Below, one piece after another: positions 2,033-8,778 of a stretch of 11,348 nucleotides of DNA; the first letter of the stretch is position 1, and the number at the start of each line of letters is the position of its first letter. The notes beneath the pieces are model-generated. The model did no database searches. It had not been told where the DNA came from and worked only from the letters and a program-made list of their open reading frames with translations. The DNA lies in assembly GCA_031385045.1 (NCBI GenBank), contig JANNBC010000029.1:1-11348 (forward strand), given 5' to 3'. The translations under genes and the position numbers were made by a program. The DNA is from a bacterium. Lineage in GTDB: Bacteria > Bdellovibrionota_C > UBA2361 > CALJRW01.

Positions 2033-3304
2033 TTAGATATGAGTTAATAAACTTTTAACCTCAGCCATTAAAGGACGCTCTATAATTATCGGAGTTAAGC
2101 AATAATCCCTCAGAACTTTAAGTCCCAATGGGATCTCAGCAACAGAGTGATTAATTAAATCTTCCATTAAACAACCAAAGGCACGAATATCTAAGAACTC
2201 ACGTTGGTGACTTGTAGGATCGTATCGTGAAGCCGCACCAAAATCTCCCAAAACGCAGTCTCCTTGATGATTCGCTAAGATATTATGGGCATATAAATCT
2301 CCATGGGTAATGCCTCGCTGGTGAAGATGACTCATGGCGGAAGCAATATTTTTTAAAATTTCTAAAATAAACTCTAAAGAAAAGCTAGTTCCCACTGGAA
2401 AAGTATCTCGCGTACAAGTTTTAAAATTTGGAGGACAACCTAGGCTCTGATATTCACTAGAAATTAATTTGAGGAGCAGACCTTGATTTTCATTGGCTTG
2501 ATGATCTATCTGGCCAATGACTGGAATTATATTTGGATGCTGACCTACAGCGATACAGGCCTCTAGGTCATCAATAATATAGCCATCACTTGTTAGTCTT
2601 CCCTTATATTTCTTGACCGCTATGCCTTCCGCAAAGCCTTTTGCACTTGCTTCCCATACTTCACTAGACGGACTTTCTCCTAGCAATTTAATCAACTGGA
2701 TTTGATCGTAACGAATTTTTGGCAACTCTACTAACTTAATAAATGGCTTCTGAAAGGGATTTCCAGAATCAGCATACCAAGATAATTTTGGCAAATTAAA
2801 TATCCAATTTGCAGGCTCAGCAGGAAGGCTATTAGCAGAAAGTCGTAAAAGTTCTAAGTTCTGACAGGCGATCATTTCCTCTGGTAAAGATTCCAAGTAA
2901 TTTCCTGTTAGGGCAAACTTACGCAAGCTAGCTAAATCCCCAATCGATCTGGGCAACTGTCTTAATTGGTTATCAGTTAAAATTAACCATTTGAGATTTA
3001 TTGGTAAGACATTCTCGTCAAAGACAGAAATCTGACAAGATTTAAATCCAATAATTTCTAGATTGGAACATGCAACAAGAACATCGGGGATCTTAGTAAA
3101 AAGATTTTGAGATAAAAATAAAACTCTTAGTCTCGATAACTCTGCAAATCTAGACGGTAGTTCCTTAAGTGTCCCCTGAGCAGCATCTAAAATCTCGATC
3201 TGATTTGCAAATTCAAACACTTCTTCCGGAAAATAACTGGCATTCCTTAAAGTGAGCGTTTTTGATTGGGTATCATAACTATGAAAAAAAGGAATCTTTT
3301 GCAT
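2033..3304 (-). CDS. Leucine-rich-repeat-containing Ser/Thr(Hanks)-type protein kinase
   Basis: N-terminal LRRs (LRVLFLSQNLF, LKWLILTDNQLRQLP, LRKFALTGNYLESLP, LELLRLSANSLP). C-terminal kinase motifs IAVK, TSDG, HGDLYAHNIL, LGDFGAAS, DIRAFGCL. Confidence 0.9.
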   Translation of the reverse strand: MQKIPFFHSYDTQSKTLTLRNASYFPEEVFEFANQIEILDAAQGTLKELPSRFAELSRLRVLFLSQNLFTKIPDVLVACSNLEIIGFKSCQISVFDENVLPINLKWLILTDNQLRQLPRSIGDLASLRKFALTGNYLESLPEEMIACQNLELLRLSANSLPAEPANWIFNLPKLSWYADSGNPFQKPFIKLVELPKIRYDQIQLIKLLGESPSSEVWEASAKGFAEGIAVKKYKGRLTSDGYIIDDLEACIAVGQHPNIIPVIGQIDHQANENQGLLLKLISSEYQSLGCPPNFKTCTRDTFPVGTSFSLEFILEILKNIASAMSHLHQRGITHGDLYAHNILANHQGDCVLGDFGAASRYDPTSHQREFLDIRAFGCLMEDLINHSVAEIPLGLKVLRDYCLTPIIIERPLMAEVKSLLTHI

Positions 3305-3394: not shown

Positions 3395-4123
3395 TTGCTT
3401 GAACCGTATCCCAGAGTTATTTTTTATGTTAACTTATTTATTGTGTTAAATTACCAAGTTCTAATTATTGATGATGACCGTTCGTTTACGAATTTAGTAA
3501 AAATCCGCCTAGAGCAAATCCTCAAGAATATTTCTGTTCAAAATTTTGAATCTCTAGCTTCCGCTGAAAAATTTCTAAAAAAAGCTGATCCTAATTTTGA
3601 TCTAGTAGTAATTGATCAACATTTACCTGATGGCCTAGGGAGTGATTTTATTAAAAAAGGATTATTTGGATATACTGCTGTTCTCTCCATGAGCTCAGAT
3701 CAAGCAATTGAGATTCCAGCTAAATCAATTGGTGCCGGGGCAACTTTTTTCTTGCAGAAGGACGATTTAAGCAAACCTCTCTTCGAATATTTAATTCATG
3801 GCCTCATCCAACGTAATCAAATAGCTAAAGAGTTACACGAAACCAATAAGAAATTAGTCAAACTAGATACTATTAAAAAACTAATCTCTACTTTTAAACA
3901 TGAGATCAATAATCCCCTAACAGCAATCTTTGGTGCTTCATTCATTCTGAAACGCAAGTATGAGCATGAAAGAGAGCAAATGGAAGCAATTCAGCTAATC
4001 GATACTAGCTCAAAACGAATTAAAGAAATCATTGAAAGTATCGATCGCAATCCCGATCTGACAGAAGAAGAAAAAGCCAATCAAAAAGTTTATCAAATCC
4101 CAGGAGATAAGCCCTGGAAATAA
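3395..4123 (+). CDS. Receiver (REC) domain fused to a HisKA/DHp helix pair, with no HATPase domain; true start may be GTG at 3443
   Basis: REC motifs VLIIDDD, DLVVID74QHLPDGLG, S100, GATFFLQK122. H-box FKH169EINNPLTAI. The protein ends about 70 aa after the His with no N/G1/F/G2 boxes. Confidence 0.85.
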   Translation: MLEPYPRVIFYVNLFIVLNYQVLIIDDDRSFTNLVKIRLEQILKNISVQNFESLASAEKFLKKADPNFDLVVIDQHLPDGLGSDFIKKGLFGYTAVLSMSSDQAIEIPAKSIGAGATFFLQKDDLSKPLFEYLIHGLIQRNQIAKELHETNKKLVKLDTIKKLISTFKHEINNPLTAIFGASFILKRKYEHEREQMEAIQLIDTSSKRIKEIIESIDRNPDLTEEEKANQKVYQIPGDKPWK

Positions 4124-5197: not shown

Positions 5198-5268
5198 TTC
5201 TCCCCTTTTGGGACGCCCAGCATCGCCACTAATAACTAGATTATCTAGTGCGTCCCAAAAGGGGAGAA
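5198..5268. repeat. Perfect 19-bp inverted repeat enclosing a smaller palindrome (REP/MITE-like hairpin)
   Basis: TTCTCCCCTTTTGGGACGC (5198-5216) pairs with GCGTCCCAAAAGGGGAGAA (5250-5268). Inner ACTAGA-TTA-TCTAGT at 5235-5249. Confidence 0.9.
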
Positions 5269-5273
5269 GGCGC

Positions 5274-5299
5274 AAAAAAAACGACCCAATGGGTCGTTT
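5274..5299 (-). terminator. Rho-independent terminator of the RRM-bS18 gene (possibly bidirectional)
   Basis: The minus strand reads AAACGACCC-ATT-GGGTCG-TTTTTTTT, a GC-rich stem followed by T8, about 20 nt after the stop at 5321. Confidence 0.85.
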
Positions 5300-5320
5300 C
5301 TATTCTAAGTATTTTTAAGA

Positions 5321-5845
5321 TTACTTAGAGTATGCCATTAAGCCTAAGCTCTGTGCACGCTTTACAGCTTTCTTCATTTTTCTTTGGTTATAAGAAGAAA
5401 GACCTGTGTACTTTCTTGAAAGTAATCGTCCACGCTCGCTAACAAATCTAGCTAAGGCATTTACGTCACGGTACGAAAGCTCCTTAGTTGGATCTTGAAC
5501 ATAAGGATCCATTCTACGGTTACGTTTAAAAATTGGAACTCTTTGAATTGGTGGAAAGTATTCTTGCTTAGCAGTTTCACGAACTTCAGCAGGCTTGCCT
5601 TTATCAAAAGCAACTTTCATTGGTCGGCTATTAATAACTCTTTCATTCAAAGCTTTAACAGCTTTTTCAGCGTCATCAACATTTTCCATTTCAATAAAAG
5701 CGAATCCACGAGAACGTTTTGTTTCACGATCAACTGCGATCACAACGCTTAAACATGGGCCAAACTCTTCAAACATTACCCGTAAATCGTCGTTGGTAAC
5801 TTCAAAATCAATATTGCTTACAAATAATCTTCTTCTTTTTTCCAT
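5321..5845 (-). CDS. rpsR: Fusion protein: N-terminal RRM (RNP) RNA-binding domain plus C-terminal 30S ribosomal protein bS18
   Basis: RNP2 LFVSNI and RNP1 RGFAFIEM, with the RRM ending RPMKVAF. The C-terminus ELSYRDVNALARFVSERGRLLSRKYTGLSSYNQRKMKKAVKRAQSLGLMAY aligns to the bS18 signature (IDYKD..L..FISERGKI.PRR.TG.....QR.L..AIKRAR.LALLPY). Likely start is ATG at 5845 (MEKRRR); the ORF track gives TTG at 5860. Confidence 0.9.
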   Translation of the reverse strand: MEKRRRLFVSNIDFEVTNDDLRVMFEEFGPCLSVVIAVDRETKRSRGFAFIEMENVDDAEKAVKALNERVINSRPMKVAFDKGKPAEVRETAKQEYFPPIQRVPIFKRNRRMDPYVQDPTKELSYRDVNALARFVSERGRLLSRKYTGLSSYNQRKMKKAVKRAQSLGLMAYSK

Positions 5846-5872
5846 TGCATTAATTAACAAAATAGCTCGCGA

Positions 5873-5901
5873 ATATTAGTTAATCTGTAGTTTTATGTCA
5901 A
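5873..5901 (-). promoter_or_regulatory. Sigma70-type promoter of the RRM-bS18 gene
   Basis: Minus strand TTGACA (5901-5896), 17-nt spacer, TAATAT (5878-5873). Implies a TSS near 5866. Confidence 0.7.
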
Positions 5902-6231
5902 GGATAGGGAAATTGAGTCTTAAAATAGGCTAAACTGTCGTTCCTTGGATATTCAAAAGGCTTAGTCTTTGAAATTAATAGTTAAAAAATATAAATTATT
6001 TTTATAACTGCGTTTTAAACTTAACCAATGAGATTTATTGACAAAAAATTTTTTTTTATATAAAAAACAACTTGTTACAAGAGGCTAAGAAAAGATTTTT
6101 CTTGACTTAGCTTGTTTAAGTAGTTTATAGAAATTACTTAGTTTTTACTGTAAGTTAGGTTGACGTCCCACTTGTTGATTTAATTCATCAGTCTTATTCG
6201 GTTTTACACAGTTAGTTTTTTGGAGCCATAA

Positions 6232-6561
6232 ATGAGTACTAGCAACGCATATAAGAGATTTGGATTTGAAGATGATGATTCCTTTTCGGAAGCCAAATCG
6301 GAGGTAAAACCAGAAAGAAACCTGTTAGCAGCCGTTCTTTCCCGAGCAATTTGTGATGCCTTTGGTACTGCGCATTGTGAAAGACACGTAGTTCGTAGCG
6401 CACGACGTTGGATTTTCAGCCAACTAACTCCAAAAATCCCTTTTAGTTTTGCTTGGGTCAGCATTCATTTAGACTTAGAGCCTACAGAACTTCAAAATAG
6501 CCTTCGTACTTACGAAGACAATCCTGACGACATCCAAGATCGCCTTGCTCTTTTAAAATAG
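6232..6561 (+). CDS. Conserved-looking hypothetical protein (PERxLLxAVLxRAIxD...ARRWI...FSFxW...LDL pattern)
   Basis: ATG preceded by a GGAG SD-like sequence. 109 aa, transcribed divergently from RRM-bS18. The motif pattern recalls an uncharacterised small helical protein family (from memory, not searched). Confidence 0.75.
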   Translation: MSTSNAYKRFGFEDDDSFSEAKSEVKPERNLLAAVLSRAICDAFGTAHCERHVVRSARRWIFSQLTPKIPFSFAWVSIHLDLEPTELQNSLRTYEDNPDDIQDRLALLK

Positions 6562-7454: not shown

Positions 7455-7910
7455 TTGTCTGCCCCAAGTAACTTTCTTTCCTTAATAGTGCCCGATTGGG
7501 ACTTCTTATTCCTGCAGTCTTTGGCGATCATTGTCACAGCAATGCTCTTAAAGAAGATGACTATTACTTCCTTAGTTGGCCCATTAATTACTGTGATTGC
7601 AATTTCTTGGGTTAATAATCTCTATTGGGATAGTAGATTATTCTTTGACCTACCAACTAATTTCACAGTAGATACTTTAGGTTTAATTTTCTGTAACTCC
7701 ATAATTCTCTGGGTAATTGTAAAGCTCGCTCCAGGCATTGAAATAAGTGGGATCTTTACCGCGATTAAAGCTTCCGTCATTCTGACAATCAGTAGTTATT
7801 TGATTAATAAATTTTGTAGTAATCTTGACTGGGCGCAAATCTTCCAAACTATTATTGCTATCCTTGGAGATCTACGTAATTACTTTCTAACAAATTCGAA
7901 TGCCAAATAG
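7455..7910 (+). CDS. Membrane protein resembling the YvlD / phage holin superfamily IV (4-TM) family
   Basis: Four hydrophobic segments with patterns typical of YvlD-like proteins (TAMLLK.M.ITS..G, ISWVN, NSIILW...KLAPGIEISG.FTAI.AS.IL). Overlaps the rsgA start. True start uncertain (TTG 7455 or GTG 7488). Confidence 0.65.
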   Translation: MSAPSNFLSLIVPDWDFLFLQSLAIIVTAMLLKKMTITSLVGPLITVIAISWVNNLYWDSRLFFDLPTNFTVDTLGLIFCNSIILWVIVKLAPGIEISGIFTAIKASVILTISSYLINKFCSNLDWAQIFQTIIAILGDLRNYFLTNSNAK

Positions 7911-8778
7911 CTCGATCATCGGAACTGTTATTCGCCTTTCTAGGAGACGTGTTCAAGTGCAACTAGCTGATCAACTACTGGAGTTTTCTATTCCTAGAAA
8001 ATTTTCTAATTTAATTGCTGGAGATCTAGTAGTCATTAATAATAATGAAATTATTTCATGTGAAGAAAGAAAAAATTTAATTAAACGATCCGTTGTTCAC
8101 CGGACAAAAGAAGTTGTAGCCAACCTAGATCATTTGTTAATTGTCACAGCTCCACCTCCATTATTTAACAGTTCGGTGATTGATCGATTAATCACACTCT
8201 GTGAAATTGAAAATGTTCCTGTATCGTTAATCATTAATAAGATTGACCTAGATTACCAAGCAATTAGCTCCGAGATTGAATACTATCGCTCATTAGATAT
8301 TTCAGTTCACTTAACTAGTGCAAAATCAGAAGTAGGATTAAACGATCTAAAATCATTTTTAGTGACCGAAAATCTAAAACGAATTGCATTTTCTGGTGTC
8401 TCTGGTGTTGGCAAAAGTAGTCTTTTAAAAAGAATTTTAGAAACTGAGAATATCCGAACTTCTCATGTAAGTGAAAGAACGGGGCAAGGAAGACAAACAA
8501 CCTCGGAAGTTCAAGGGTATCTTGTACCTAATACTGATGTGGTAATTTTTGATGTTCCAGGCATCCAAAACTTTGGACTAAGCCACCTAACAAACAGAGA
8601 GGTTCGTGATAGTTTTACAGATTTTTTAAATTTTCCTTGCCCCTATGCTGGCTGTCAGCATATCGGAGAAAATGAATGTGCTGTTAAAATTGCTGTTGCT
8701 TCTGGAGAGCTTTTGCCGACTCGCTATCAGTCATATTTACAAATCATTACTGAACTAGAAAGAAATAAAACATATTAA
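7900..8778 (+). CDS. rsgA: Ribosome small subunit-dependent GTPase A (circularly permuted GTPase)
   Basis: N-terminal OB-fold with AGD.V and VANLD. Permuted G-motif order NKID (G4), TSAK (G5), GVSGVGKSS (G1), GRQTT (G2), DVPG (G3). Zinc finger CPYAGCQHIGENECAV. Confidence 0.93.
   Translation: MPNSSIIGTVIRLSRRRVQVQLADQLLEFSIPRKFSNLIAGDLVVINNNEIISCEERKNLIKRSVVHRTKEVVANLDHLLIVTAPPPLFNSSVIDRLITLCEIENVPVSLIINKIDLDYQAISSEIEYYRSLDISVHLTSAKSEVGLNDLKSFLVTENLKRIAFSGVSGVGKSSLLKRILETENIRTSHVSERTGQGRQTTSEVQGYLVPNTDVVIFDVPGIQNFGLSHLTNREVRDSFTDFLNFPCPYAGCQHIGENECAVKIAVASGELLPTRYQSYLQIITELERNKTY

What the first reader, a model, noticed from the sequence alone, without database searches (positions are those of the whole stretch)
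5321..5845. RRM domain fused to ribosomal protein bS18: possible ribosome-tethered mRNA-binding module
Seen: one uninterrupted ORF with an intact RRM (RNP2 LFVSNI, RNP1 RGFAFIEM), a ~25-aa linker and a complete bS18-like domain. Established: bS18 is normally a small single-domain protein that pairs with bS6 on the 30S platform, near the mRNA exit channel and the anti-Shine-Dalgarno helix. Bacterial RRM proteins are usually free single-domain proteins. Inference: if assembled into the 30S subunit, the fusion would place a single-stranded-RNA-binding domain beside the mRNA 5' leader, as a bS1-like recruitment device or a specialised-ribosome paralog. I do not know of a characterised example, but cannot confirm novelty without a search.
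Basis: partly seen in the sequence, partly recalled or inferred. Interest (0 to 1): 0.88.

Follow-up and report, generated by a model that had tools for sequence, protein, structure and literature searches.

The report
RRM domain fused to ribosomal bS18
This bacterium's only gene for small-subunit ribosomal protein bS18 carries an RNA-binding RRM domain on a flexible tether at its front end, a design shared by almost its whole uncultivated phylum-level lineage, so its ribosomes probably hold an extra RNA-binding module where the messenger RNA leaves the small subunit.

Summary
Window 5321-5845 (minus strand) is one uninterrupted 174-aa ORF with RRM_1 (residues 7-76) and Ribosomal_S18 (121-170), both far above Pfam cut-offs. 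The C-terminal half also passes NCBI's bS18 equivalog model.

It is not an assembly chimera or a one-off stop loss. Both domains lie in one frame in 112 of 124 genomes of the window's phylum-level lineage. It is the only S18 gene in the window's genome and in 39 of 40 relatives; the fortieth, 85% complete, has none. That makes it the constitutive bS18, not a specialised paralog.

RNP1/RNP2 aromatics are conserved, the linker is hypervariable (17-55 aa), and the bS18 tail and core are conserved. None of the 150 best matches listed for 131 sister-phylum genomes spans both domains.

The genome keeps a six-domain bS1, bS21 and an intact anti-SD but is SD-poor.

Most likely the RRM binds single-stranded RNA at the 30S platform, either mRNA leaders or the 16S 3' tail. 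This is inferred, not shown. I found no paper describing it, and this scan has noted the same fusion twice before on other DNA.

The parts
5873..5901 (-). Candidate sigma-70-type promoter, TTGACA - 17 nt - TAATAT (10 of 12 matches), about 28 nt upstream of the ATG
   Evidence: The number of promoter-like hits in the region (4) is no higher than in shuffles (mean 3.7), so this is only a candidate.
5846..5872 (-). Short A/U-rich 5' leader with no Shine-Dalgarno motif
   Evidence: Sequence read (upstream 30 nt: no GGAG, GAGG or AGGA).
5321..5845 (-). RRM-bS18 fusion gene (174 codons plus stop); the sole rpsR of the genome
5606..5833 (-). RRM domain, residues 5-80, with a beta1-alpha1-beta2-beta3-alpha2-beta4 fold
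   Evidence: Pfam; AF2 pLDDT above 94; Foldseek top hits are RRMs with TM (target) 0.90-0.95.
5810..5827 (-). RNP2 motif LFVSNI (residues 7-12)
   Evidence: F8 and N11 are conserved in at least 90% of the 34 aligned homologues.
5687..5710 (-). RNP1 motif RGFAFIEM (residues 46-53)
   Evidence: G47 and F48 are invariant and F50 is at least 90% conserved.
5555..5605 (-). Flexible linker, residues 81-97
   Evidence: pLDDT 53-65. Across the family it is 17-55 residues long, 25% mean identity, G/S/R-rich.
5486..5554 (-). bS18 basic N-terminal tail, residues 98-120 (PIFKRNRRMDPY...)
   Evidence: Aligns to residues 4 onward of solved bS18 5myj_AR. 51% mean identity in the family.
5336..5485 (-). Ribosomal_S18 core domain, residues 121-170
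   Evidence: TIGR00165, 54.5 bits against a 38.75 cut-off. 66% mean identity in the family.
5277..5301 (-). Intrinsic-terminator-like hairpin (11-bp stem) followed by a U run, about 20 nt after the stop
   Evidence: Fold: -14.2 kcal/mol, z = -3.4. The consensus scan did not call it.

Best explanation
The gene encodes the organism's one and only bS18. The protein has three parts: an N-terminal canonical RRM (residues 5-80), a disordered tether of variable length (81-97 here), and a complete bS18 with basic N-tail and core (98-174).

Shown: the architecture; its conservation in almost the whole phylum-level lineage; single copy; preservation of the RNA-contacting RNP1/RNP2 aromatics; a fixed RRM length against a hypervariable linker.

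Inferred from established ribosome structure: the bS18 core assembles with bS6 on the 30S platform as usual. Its N-terminus points into the platform cleft, where the mRNA 5' leader exits and the 16S 3' tail (anti-SD) lies. Every ribosome would therefore carry an RRM on a leash of roughly 60 Å or more at that site.

Most likely function (inference): the RRM binds single-stranded, A/U-rich mRNA leaders emerging from or approaching the exit channel. It would add a ribosome-resident mRNA-capture or holding contact, beside bS1, in a lineage where Shine-Dalgarno pairing contributes little.
For: - Domains and thresholds.
- Sole S18 gene: 1 match in the window's genome (about 95% complete). Exactly 1 match in each of 39 of 40 relatives; the fortieth is 85% complete and has none.
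- Conservation: both domains lie in one frame in 112 of 124 genomes of the held phylum, 83 of 91 in the window's order and 29 of 33 in other orders.
- Selection: G47 and F48 are invariant; F8, N11 and F50 are at least 90% conserved. RRM identity is 52% at a fixed 75-76 aa, the linker is 25% at 17-55 aa, and the S18 core is 66%.
- Structure: the AF2 model has two confident domains and a low-confidence linker, pTM 0.49. Foldseek top hits are RNA-bound RRMs.
- Independent data: a metatranscriptome contig from a relative, about 90% identical, bridges residues 57-118 with no indel, and by my count 11 of its 12 listed differences are at third codon positions.
- Position of the bS18 N-terminus: the E. 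coli bS18 N-terminus becomes ordered on contacting mRNA at initiation, and the chloroplast bS18c N-extension projects into the platform cavity (passages of preprint 10.64898/2026.07.03.736309). The 16S 3' tail binds a groove of bS6 and bS18 in F. johnsoniae (passages of PMC7797042).
- SD-poor setting: an SD-like 4-mer at -18..-4 occurs in 11% of 1736 crude starts in this genome, against 6% in the upstream control window and 46% in E. coli by the same method. rpsU, rpsA and the fusion gene have no SD. The anti-SD CCTCC is intact.
Against: - No experiment or structure shows the protein in a 30S subunit or the RRM bound to any RNA. The RRM's position and ligand are inferred.
- The link to SD-poor initiation is weak. 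The four other fusion genomes sampled score 0.22-0.28 and the four sister-phylum genomes without the fusion score 0.28-0.44. These ranges touch, n is 52-93 crude starts each, and the genomes are not independent.
- bS1 is intact with six S1 domains, so an extra mRNA catcher is not obviously needed.
- One genome inside the lineage (G049) has a short bS18 with no RRM and no room for one upstream, so the RRM can apparently be lost.
- RRMs can also bind proteins or structured rRNA, as cS22 does at h6 and h10.
Confidence: 0.5

Rival explanations
1. The tethered RRM binds the ribosome's own RNA rather than mRNA. It would hold the single-stranded, pyrimidine-rich 3' tail of 16S rRNA (the anti-SD) and so gate or mask SD pairing. 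That would be functionally analogous to the bS21/bS18/bS6 pocket of Bacteroidia. Alternatively it could dock on a 16S helix as an architectural element, like chloroplast cS22.
For: - bS18 lies directly against the 16S 3' tail in F. johnsoniae (PMC7797042, passages).
- The genome keeps CCTCC yet is SD-poor, the same paradox as in Bacteroidia.
- cS22 shows that ribosome-resident RRMs can bind rRNA helices, and cS22 is among the best solved sequence matches of this RRM (5x8p_v, E 1.6e-20).
Against: - A hypervariable linker of 17-55 residues suits a mobile domain better than a fixed architectural one.
- AF2 gives no docking between the two domains (pTM 0.49).
- There is no Bacteroidia-like strong SD on rpsU or on the fusion gene that would indicate an anti-SD-based autoregulatory circuit.
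- Other fusion genomes still show moderate SD enrichment, 0.22-0.28 against 0.03-0.08 in the control window.
Confidence: 0.22
2. The RRM serves bS18's own biogenesis or regulation rather than translation in general. It would bind the fusion gene's mRNA, rpsF mRNA or pre-16S rRNA. That could coordinate bS6:bS18 stoichiometry or chaperone platform assembly after rpsR left the rpsF operon.
For: - rpsR is no longer between rpsF and rplI, so co-translation with bS6 is lost.
- Autoregulation of many r-proteins through RNA binding is recalled general knowledge, not from a call.
- The gene appears to be a monocistronic unit with its own candidate promoter and terminator.
Against: - The sister phylum also has a stand-alone rpsR away from rpsF and rplI, yet has no RRM, so relocation alone does not call for an RRM.
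- No known leader RNA family was found in the window or at the rpsF locus (E up to 0.1).
- The gene's leader is only about 25 nt and unstructured by eye.
Confidence: 0.13
3. The RRM is a protein-docking module that recruits a factor, such as a helicase, an RNase, a hibernation factor or the conserved 109-aa neighbour, to the 30S platform.
For: - RRMs can mediate protein contacts; PMC5737520 suggests an adaptor role for cS22.
- A 109-aa ORF of unknown function is a conserved upstream neighbour of the fusion gene across the class.
Against: The canonical RNA-stacking aromatics of RNP1 and RNP2 are invariant or nearly so, which points to RNA binding. No evidence links the neighbour to the ribosome: no Pfam or NCBIfam hit, and only 'hypothetical' clusters in the Atlas.
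Confidence: 0.08
4. It is an artefact (assembly chimera or isolated stop-codon loss), or a specialised-ribosome paralog alongside a canonical bS18.
For: None found. A 95%-complete draft could in principle hide a second rpsR.
Against: - The same fusion is in one frame in 112 of 124 independently assembled genomes and in more than 110 protein clusters from several sources.
- Each of the 39 relatives that have an S18 match has exactly one.
- A contig from another study's RNA library bridges the junction.
Confidence: 0.02

Closest known systems
Canonical bacterial bS18 (rpsR; Pfam PF01084, NCBIfam TIGR00165)
   Same: Residues 98-174 are a complete bS18. It passes both curated models, aligns end to end with solved bS18 chains (5myj_AR, 7nhk_s) and is the single copy in the genome.
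   Different: It carries about 97 extra N-terminal residues: a folded RRM plus a tether. Canonical bS18 is about 75-100 aa with only a short basic tail. The gene lies outside rpsF-rpsR-rplI.
Chloroplast bS18c N-terminal extension (heptapeptide repeats), preprint 10.64898/2026.07.03.736309 (passages read)
   Same: It is an N-terminal elaboration of bS18 at the platform cavity, proposed there to make extra contacts with mRNA during initiation. Its length also varies between lineages.
   Different: The chloroplast extension is a short repeat of basic and aromatic residues (about 19-55 aa) with no folded domain. Here a complete RRM fold is attached.
Chloroplast cS22 / PSRP2 (PMC5737520, passages read; 5x8p_v)
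   Same: It is the known case of RRM domains as resident parts of a bacterial-type small subunit. Its RRMs are among the best solved sequence matches to this RRM (E 1.6e-20).
   Different: cS22 is a separate nuclear-encoded protein with two RRMs. It binds 16S h6 and h10 at the foot of the subunit, far from the mRNA exit. It is not fused to a core r-protein.
bS1 (rpsA)
   Same: It is a ribosome-bound binder of single-stranded mRNA leaders at the platform and exit side.
   Different: The fold is unrelated (S1/OB domains) and it is a separate protein. This genome keeps a six-domain bS1, so the RRM is an addition, not a substitute.
Bacteroidia anti-SD sequestration pocket (bS21/bS18/bS6; PMC7797042, passages read)
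   Same: It occurs in an SD-poor lineage with an intact anti-SD, and bS18 sits against the 16S 3' tail.
   Different: There the sequestration uses residues of the ordinary bS18 core, with no added domain. A strong SD on rpsU or rpsR is typical there and absent here.
Free bacterial single-RRM proteins (NCBIfam NF058537 'Rbp_regulator'; cyanobacterial and Bacteroidota Rbp proteins, names recalled)
   Same: The domain type is the same: 85.4 bits to NF058537 and 35-53% identity to free RRMs of many phyla. The same genomes also encode free RRM proteins.
   Different: The score is below that model's cut-off of 100. In the quick tree the 34 fused RRMs sit on one side of a branch from 55 free RRMs (SH-aLRT 87). 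They are also covalently tied to a ribosomal protein.

Membership tests
bS18 (Ribosomal_S18, PF01084 / TIGR00165) | Sequence matches the curated family models above their cut-offs | tested here: met
   PF01084 scores 65 bits against 21. The TIGR00165 equivalog scores 54.5 bits against 38.75.
bS18 (Ribosomal_S18, PF01084 / TIGR00165) | Serves as the genome's bS18, with no other copy to do the job | tested here: met
   There is 1 S18 match in the window's genome. Each of 39 of 40 relatives has exactly 1; the fortieth (85% complete) has none.
bS18 (Ribosomal_S18, PF01084 / TIGR00165) | Full-length correspondence to solved bS18, including the basic N-tail | tested here: met
   Query residues 101-172 align to 5myj_AR residues 4-75 of 81. 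AF2 pLDDT is 88-96 over residues 110-170.
bS18 (Ribosomal_S18, PF01084 / TIGR00165) | Heterodimer with bS6 and incorporation into the 30S platform | not testable with these tools
   bS6 is encoded in the genome. No complex prediction was run, and physical incorporation needs ribosome purification.
RRM (RRM_1, PF00076) | Pfam match above the cut-off | tested here: met
   80.8 bits against 20.7, covering profile positions 1-69 of 70.
RRM (RRM_1, PF00076) | RNP1 and RNP2 motifs with their aromatic residues | tested here: met
   RNP2 is LFVSNI and RNP1 is RGFAFIEM. F48 is invariant and F8 and F50 are at least 90% conserved in 34 sequences.
RRM (RRM_1, PF00076) | beta1-alpha1-beta2-beta3-alpha2-beta4 fold | tested here: met
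   DSSP on the model gives E5-10, H18-26, E31-38, E45-53, H56-66, E77-80. Foldseek matches RRM chains with TM (target) 0.90-0.95 and rmsd about 1 Å.
RRM (RRM_1, PF00076) | Binds single-stranded RNA | not testable with these tools
   Needs binding assays or CLIP.
cS22/PSRP2-type ribosomal RRM protein | Stand-alone protein with two RRMs bound at 16S h6 and h10 | tested here: not met
   This protein has a single RRM, fused to bS18. The architecture differs although the RRM sequences are similar.
bS1-type mRNA-binding r-protein | S1 (OB-fold) domains | tested here: not met
   The fusion has no S1 domain. A separate protein with six S1 domains is encoded on contig C26.
Chloroplast-type bS18 N-terminal repeat extension | Tandem heptapeptide motif of basic and aromatic residues N-terminal to bS18 | tested here: not met
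   The N-terminal addition is a folded RRM plus a non-repetitive linker here. Family linkers are G/S/R-rich low complexity. The motif definition is taken from passages read.

The most novel reading that the evidence does not exclude
Every ribosome of a whole phylum-level bacterial lineage carries a built-in RRM at the mRNA exit and anti-SD site. This RRM would be a primary determinant of mRNA recruitment or start-site selection in place of Shine-Dalgarno pairing. That would be a third bacterial solution to initiation, beside SD/anti-SD pairing and bS1 capture. It would also be a bacterial parallel to RRM-based mRNA handling on eukaryotic small subunits.
Probability: 0.25. Interest if true: 0.85.

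Novelty: new variant of a known kind. Interest (0 to 1): 0.7.

Why it matters
Core ribosomal proteins rarely gain folded domains in bacteria, and bS18's N-terminus sits where mRNA leaders and the anti-SD meet. A conserved, single-copy RRM-bS18 means that a large uncultivated branch labelled Bdellovibrionota builds structurally different ribosomes, while automatic annotation calls the protein plain 'S18'.

If the RRM contacts mRNA, it offers a natural system for studying SD-independent initiation. It would also be a ready-made example of tethering an RNA-binding module to the ribosome.

The lineage supplies its own controls. One genome (G049) has lost the RRM, and the sister phylum has a stand-alone rpsR without one.

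Tried and rejected
- **Exhaustive representative search.** Eukaryotic multi-RRM proteins swamped it. Only P0125, P0128 and the fragment P0117 among the 150 listed were fusion-type, so it gave no measure of breadth.
- **Long S18 frames in the sister phylum.** I suspected hidden fusions. The 8 loci I fetched have G/R/D-rich N- and C-terminal extensions and no RRM.
- **Genes that keep a strong SD.** I looked for a Bacteroidia-like rpsU/rpsR signal. The 120 hits were mostly internal pseudo-starts and uninformative. Direct inspection showed no SD on rpsU, rpsA or the fusion gene and a weak GAGG on rpsF.
- **Rfam.** No match at E up to 0.1 in the window or the rpsF locus.
- **Promoter and terminator scan.** Promoter-like hits were no more frequent than in shuffles and no terminator was called. 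A fold shows the hairpin.
- **Runs X2 and X3.** They cover only 5693-5917, so they say nothing about the junction. X1 may be the source of this DNA and is not independent.
- **Tree.** The careful tree did not finish within the time limit, so only the quick tree is reported.
- **The 109-aa neighbour.** No Pfam or NCBIfam family, and the Atlas gives only 'hypothetical protein' clusters.
- **Not reached.** Bdellovibrionota in the strict sense (Bdellovibrio and Bacteriovorax genomes) could not be reached with the handles I had, so the outer limit of the fusion's range is set only against the phylum of G124.

Full report
**Observation**

Listing ORFs and translating window 5321-5845 on the minus strand gives one uninterrupted 174-residue protein. 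Pfam finds RRM_1 at residues 7-76 (E 6.6e-23, 80.8 bits, cut-off 20.7). It finds Ribosomal_S18 at residues 121-170 (E 6.6e-18, 65 bits, cut-off 21). NCBI's curated equivalog model for bS18, TIGR00165, also passes (54.5 bits against 38.75).

The start is the ATG at 5845, not the upstream TTG at 5860. The 37 homologues whose starts I computed begin (ATG in 36, GTG in one) directly at strand beta-1. A solved 81-residue bS18 (5myj_AR) aligns its residues 4-75 to query residues 101-172. So the complete bS18 with its basic N-tail begins at about residue 98, and the true linker is about residues 81-97.

**Not an artefact and not a paralog**

The window's genome is 2.83 Mb in 61 contigs and about 95% complete. 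It has exactly one Ribosomal_S18 match, and that match is this gene. At the rpsF locus the order is L25 - pth - rpsF - rplI, with no rpsR between rpsF and rplI.

Among 40 relatives, 38 have a single match spanning both domains in one frame. One more (G033) has both halves in one 258-aa frame. One genome (G031, 85% complete) has neither. Each of the 39 has exactly one S18 match.

A search of the whole held phylum covered 124 genomes, all of one class. I fetched 27 loci from other orders to check them. Counts:

| Group | Both domains in one frame | Remainder |
|---|---|---|
| Window's order | 83 of 91 | G087: the two halves adjacent but in different frames; 7 genomes (55-90% complete) with no S18-part match to this query |
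| Other orders of the class | 29 of 33 | G049: bS18 without RRM; G043 and G046 not examined; G071 (86% complete) no match |
| Total | 112 of 124 | 12 |

The large protein database holds more than 110 clusters at 90% identity with PF00076 plus PF01084. Where a source names them, it is 'ribosomal protein S18' in all but two rows.

One contig from an RNA-seq library of another study covers 5492-5677, which is residues 57-118. It is about 90% identical to the window and has no indel. By my count from the ATG at 5845, 11 of its 12 listed differences fall on third codon positions. An RNA library can hold DNA, so this is at most weak evidence of transcription. It is good evidence for a coding frame read straight through the junction.

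**Range and origin**

Record titles of close loci say 'Bdellovibrionota bacterium' and 'Deltaproteobacteria bacterium UBA2409'. In the phylum that holds a Silvanigrellaceae MAG (G124; 131 genomes), S18 is found in 127 of 131. None of the 150 best-scoring matches of the fusion protein listed there spans both domains. RRMs there are free proteins of roughly 90-165 aa and bS18 is a separate gene. A further 113 weaker matches were not listed. Fusions in the window's own class score E 1e-25 or better and would have ranked first.

Eight long S18 frames from that phylum have G/R/D-rich extensions and no RRM. In three of these sister-phylum loci scanned with Pfam, rpsR is already a stand-alone gene flanked by unrelated genes. 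Own bS6 and bL9 queries found nothing beside it in five such loci. A Bacteroidota genome keeps rpsF-rpsR-rplI. So relocation of rpsR seems to predate the fusion and may have made it possible.

A quick maximum-likelihood tree used 89 RRMs: 34 fused, 16 free from the same phylum, 10 from the sister phylum and 29 from other phyla, with none dropped. It puts all fused RRMs on one side of a branch (SH-aLRT 87). This fits a single ancient fusion but does not prove it, because the alignment has only 84 columns and the careful search did not finish. G049 has a short bS18 with no room for an RRM upstream, while its family-mates G050 and G051 have the fusion. This looks like a secondary loss.

**Anatomy and selection**

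The 34-sequence alignment A1 shows invariant G47 and F48. F8, N11 and F50 are at least 90% conserved. The bS18 core has many invariant positions.

| Segment | Mean pairwise identity | Length |
|---|---|---|
| RRM | 52% | fixed, 75-76 |
| Linker | 25% | 17-55, G/S/R-rich |
| bS18 N-tail | 51% | 23-26 |
| S18 core | 66% | fixed, 50 |

AlphaFold2 on A1 gives mean pLDDT 88.1. It shows a canonical beta-alpha-beta-beta-alpha-beta RRM (residues 5-80, pLDDT above 94) and a low-confidence linker (53-65). The S18 domain is confident. The pTM of 0.49 means the relative domain placement is undefined. Foldseek's best PDB matches are RRMs, several solved with RNA, at TM (target) 0.90-0.95. No solved chain matches both halves by sequence.

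The gene looks monocistronic:
- a TTGACA-17-TAATAT promoter-like site at 5901-5873 (only a candidate, since such hits are no more frequent than in shuffles);
- a short SD-less A/U-rich leader;
- a hairpin plus U-run at about 5277-5301 (-14.2 kcal/mol, z = -3.4).

**Cellular setting**

The genome encodes a six-domain bS1, bS21 and bS6. It has a full 16S rRNA whose 3' end reads ...GGATTACCTCCTTT, so the anti-SD is intact.

I used a crude method: the first ATG of long ORFs, and any of GGAG, GAGG or AGGA at -18..-4.

| Genomes | SD-like fraction | Note |
|---|---|---|
| Window's genome | 0.11 | 1736 starts; upstream control window 0.06 |
| E. coli K-12 | 0.46 | same method |
| Four fusion genomes from two orders | 0.22-0.28 | 55-85 starts each |
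| Four sister-phylum genomes without fusion | 0.28-0.44 | 52-93 starts each |

The trend agrees with a link between the fusion and weak SD usage. But it rests on small, non-independent samples and the ranges touch. rpsU, rpsA and the fusion gene have no SD, and rpsF has a weak GAGG.

**How it most likely works**

Established structure places bS18 on the 30S platform with bS6. Its N-terminus points into the cleft where the mRNA leader and the 16S 3' tail lie. Passages I read support this:
- In E. coli the bS18 N-terminus becomes ordered on contacting mRNA at initiation, and the chloroplast bS18c N-extension projects into the platform cavity (preprint 10.64898/2026.07.03.736309).
- In F. johnsoniae the 16S 3' tail binds a groove of bS6 and bS18 (PMC7797042).

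An RRM on a tether of 17-55 residues attached to that N-terminus would sweep this region on every ribosome. The conserved RNP aromatics argue that it binds single-stranded RNA.

I favour capture or holding of A/U-rich mRNA leaders, in addition to bS1. Binding the anti-SD tail or another rRNA element is the main rival. Assembly or autoregulation and protein docking are lesser rivals. None of these is shown.

**Novelty**

Six full-text searches found no description of an RRM-bS18 fusion:
- RNA recognition motif + S18 + Bdellovibrio;
- bS18 + RRM;
- ribosomal protein S18 + RNA recognition motif + fusion + bacteria;
- RRM + Bdellovibrionota;
- rpsR + RRM;
- ribosomal protein + RRM domain + fused + bacterial ribosome + extension.

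Only listings and abstracts were seen for most hits. Passages were read for three papers. The library lacks most subscription journals, and no supplements were read.

This scan has noted the same fusion twice before on other genomes, with the same reading (e1-4899572 and e1-6391944). My counts and domain tests confirm those notes independently.

I file it as a new variant of a known kind: a bona fide bS18 with an unprecedented folded N-terminal domain.

Noticed in passing
window 6232-6561 (+): A 109-aa ORF with no Pfam or NCBIfam hit is a conserved upstream neighbour of the RRM-bS18 gene. In the window's order it is divergent, found in 10 of 11 loci (L006-L016). In other orders of the class it sits on the same strand directly upstream, in at least 14 loci with only about 600-nt flanks. 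It is not seen beside S18 in 8 sister-phylum loci. The ESM Atlas gives only 'hypothetical protein' clusters, some of them phage-derived.
   Followed up: partly
L090 (G049:C117:3231-4634): One genome inside the fusion-bearing class has a short bS18 of about 81 aa. The ORF starts within the conserved pre-S18 motif, and only about 170 nt separate it from the upstream 109-aa gene, so the RRM has apparently been lost. Family-mates G050 and G051 keep the fusion. This is a natural RRM-minus control.
   Followed up: partly
L091-L098 (sister-phylum S18 loci): In the sister phylum, bS18 often sits in frames of 170-200 aa with G/R/D/E-rich low-complexity extensions on both sides of the S18 domain (for example GGRDGGRNGHGG before it and an acidic tail after it). 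This is a different kind of bS18 elaboration.
   Followed up: partly
window 5200-5266: A perfect 17-nt inverted repeat (CTCCCCTTTTGGGACGC ... GCGTCCCAAAAGGGGAG), with arms about 33 nt apart, lies between the convergent periplasmic-binding-protein gene and the RRM-bS18 terminator. It was read directly in the sequence. It may be a second or bidirectional terminator, or a repeat element.
   Followed up: no
window 7900-8778 (+): RsgA, a 30S-subunit maturation GTPase (PF03193, E 6.9e-37), lies about 2 kb from the bS18 fusion gene. Whether this proximity is conserved was not checked.
   Followed up: no
window 2033-3304 (-): A 423-aa protein combines leucine-rich repeats with a Ser/Thr/Tyr protein-kinase domain (LRR_8 and Pkinase), an architecture that resembles eukaryotic ones.
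   Followed up: no
window 3395-4123 (+): A 242-aa protein has a receiver domain followed by a HisKA phospho-acceptor domain, but no ATPase (HATPase_c) domain was detected.
   Followed up: no
G000 genome-wide; window genes: The genome is 36.8% G+C and strongly SD-poor although its anti-SD is intact. A is enriched at about -11..-3 upstream of crude starts (38-43% against 32-36% further upstream). This recalls the upstream-adenine signal described for Bacteroidia in the abstract of PMC13000457 (search listing).
   Followed up: partly
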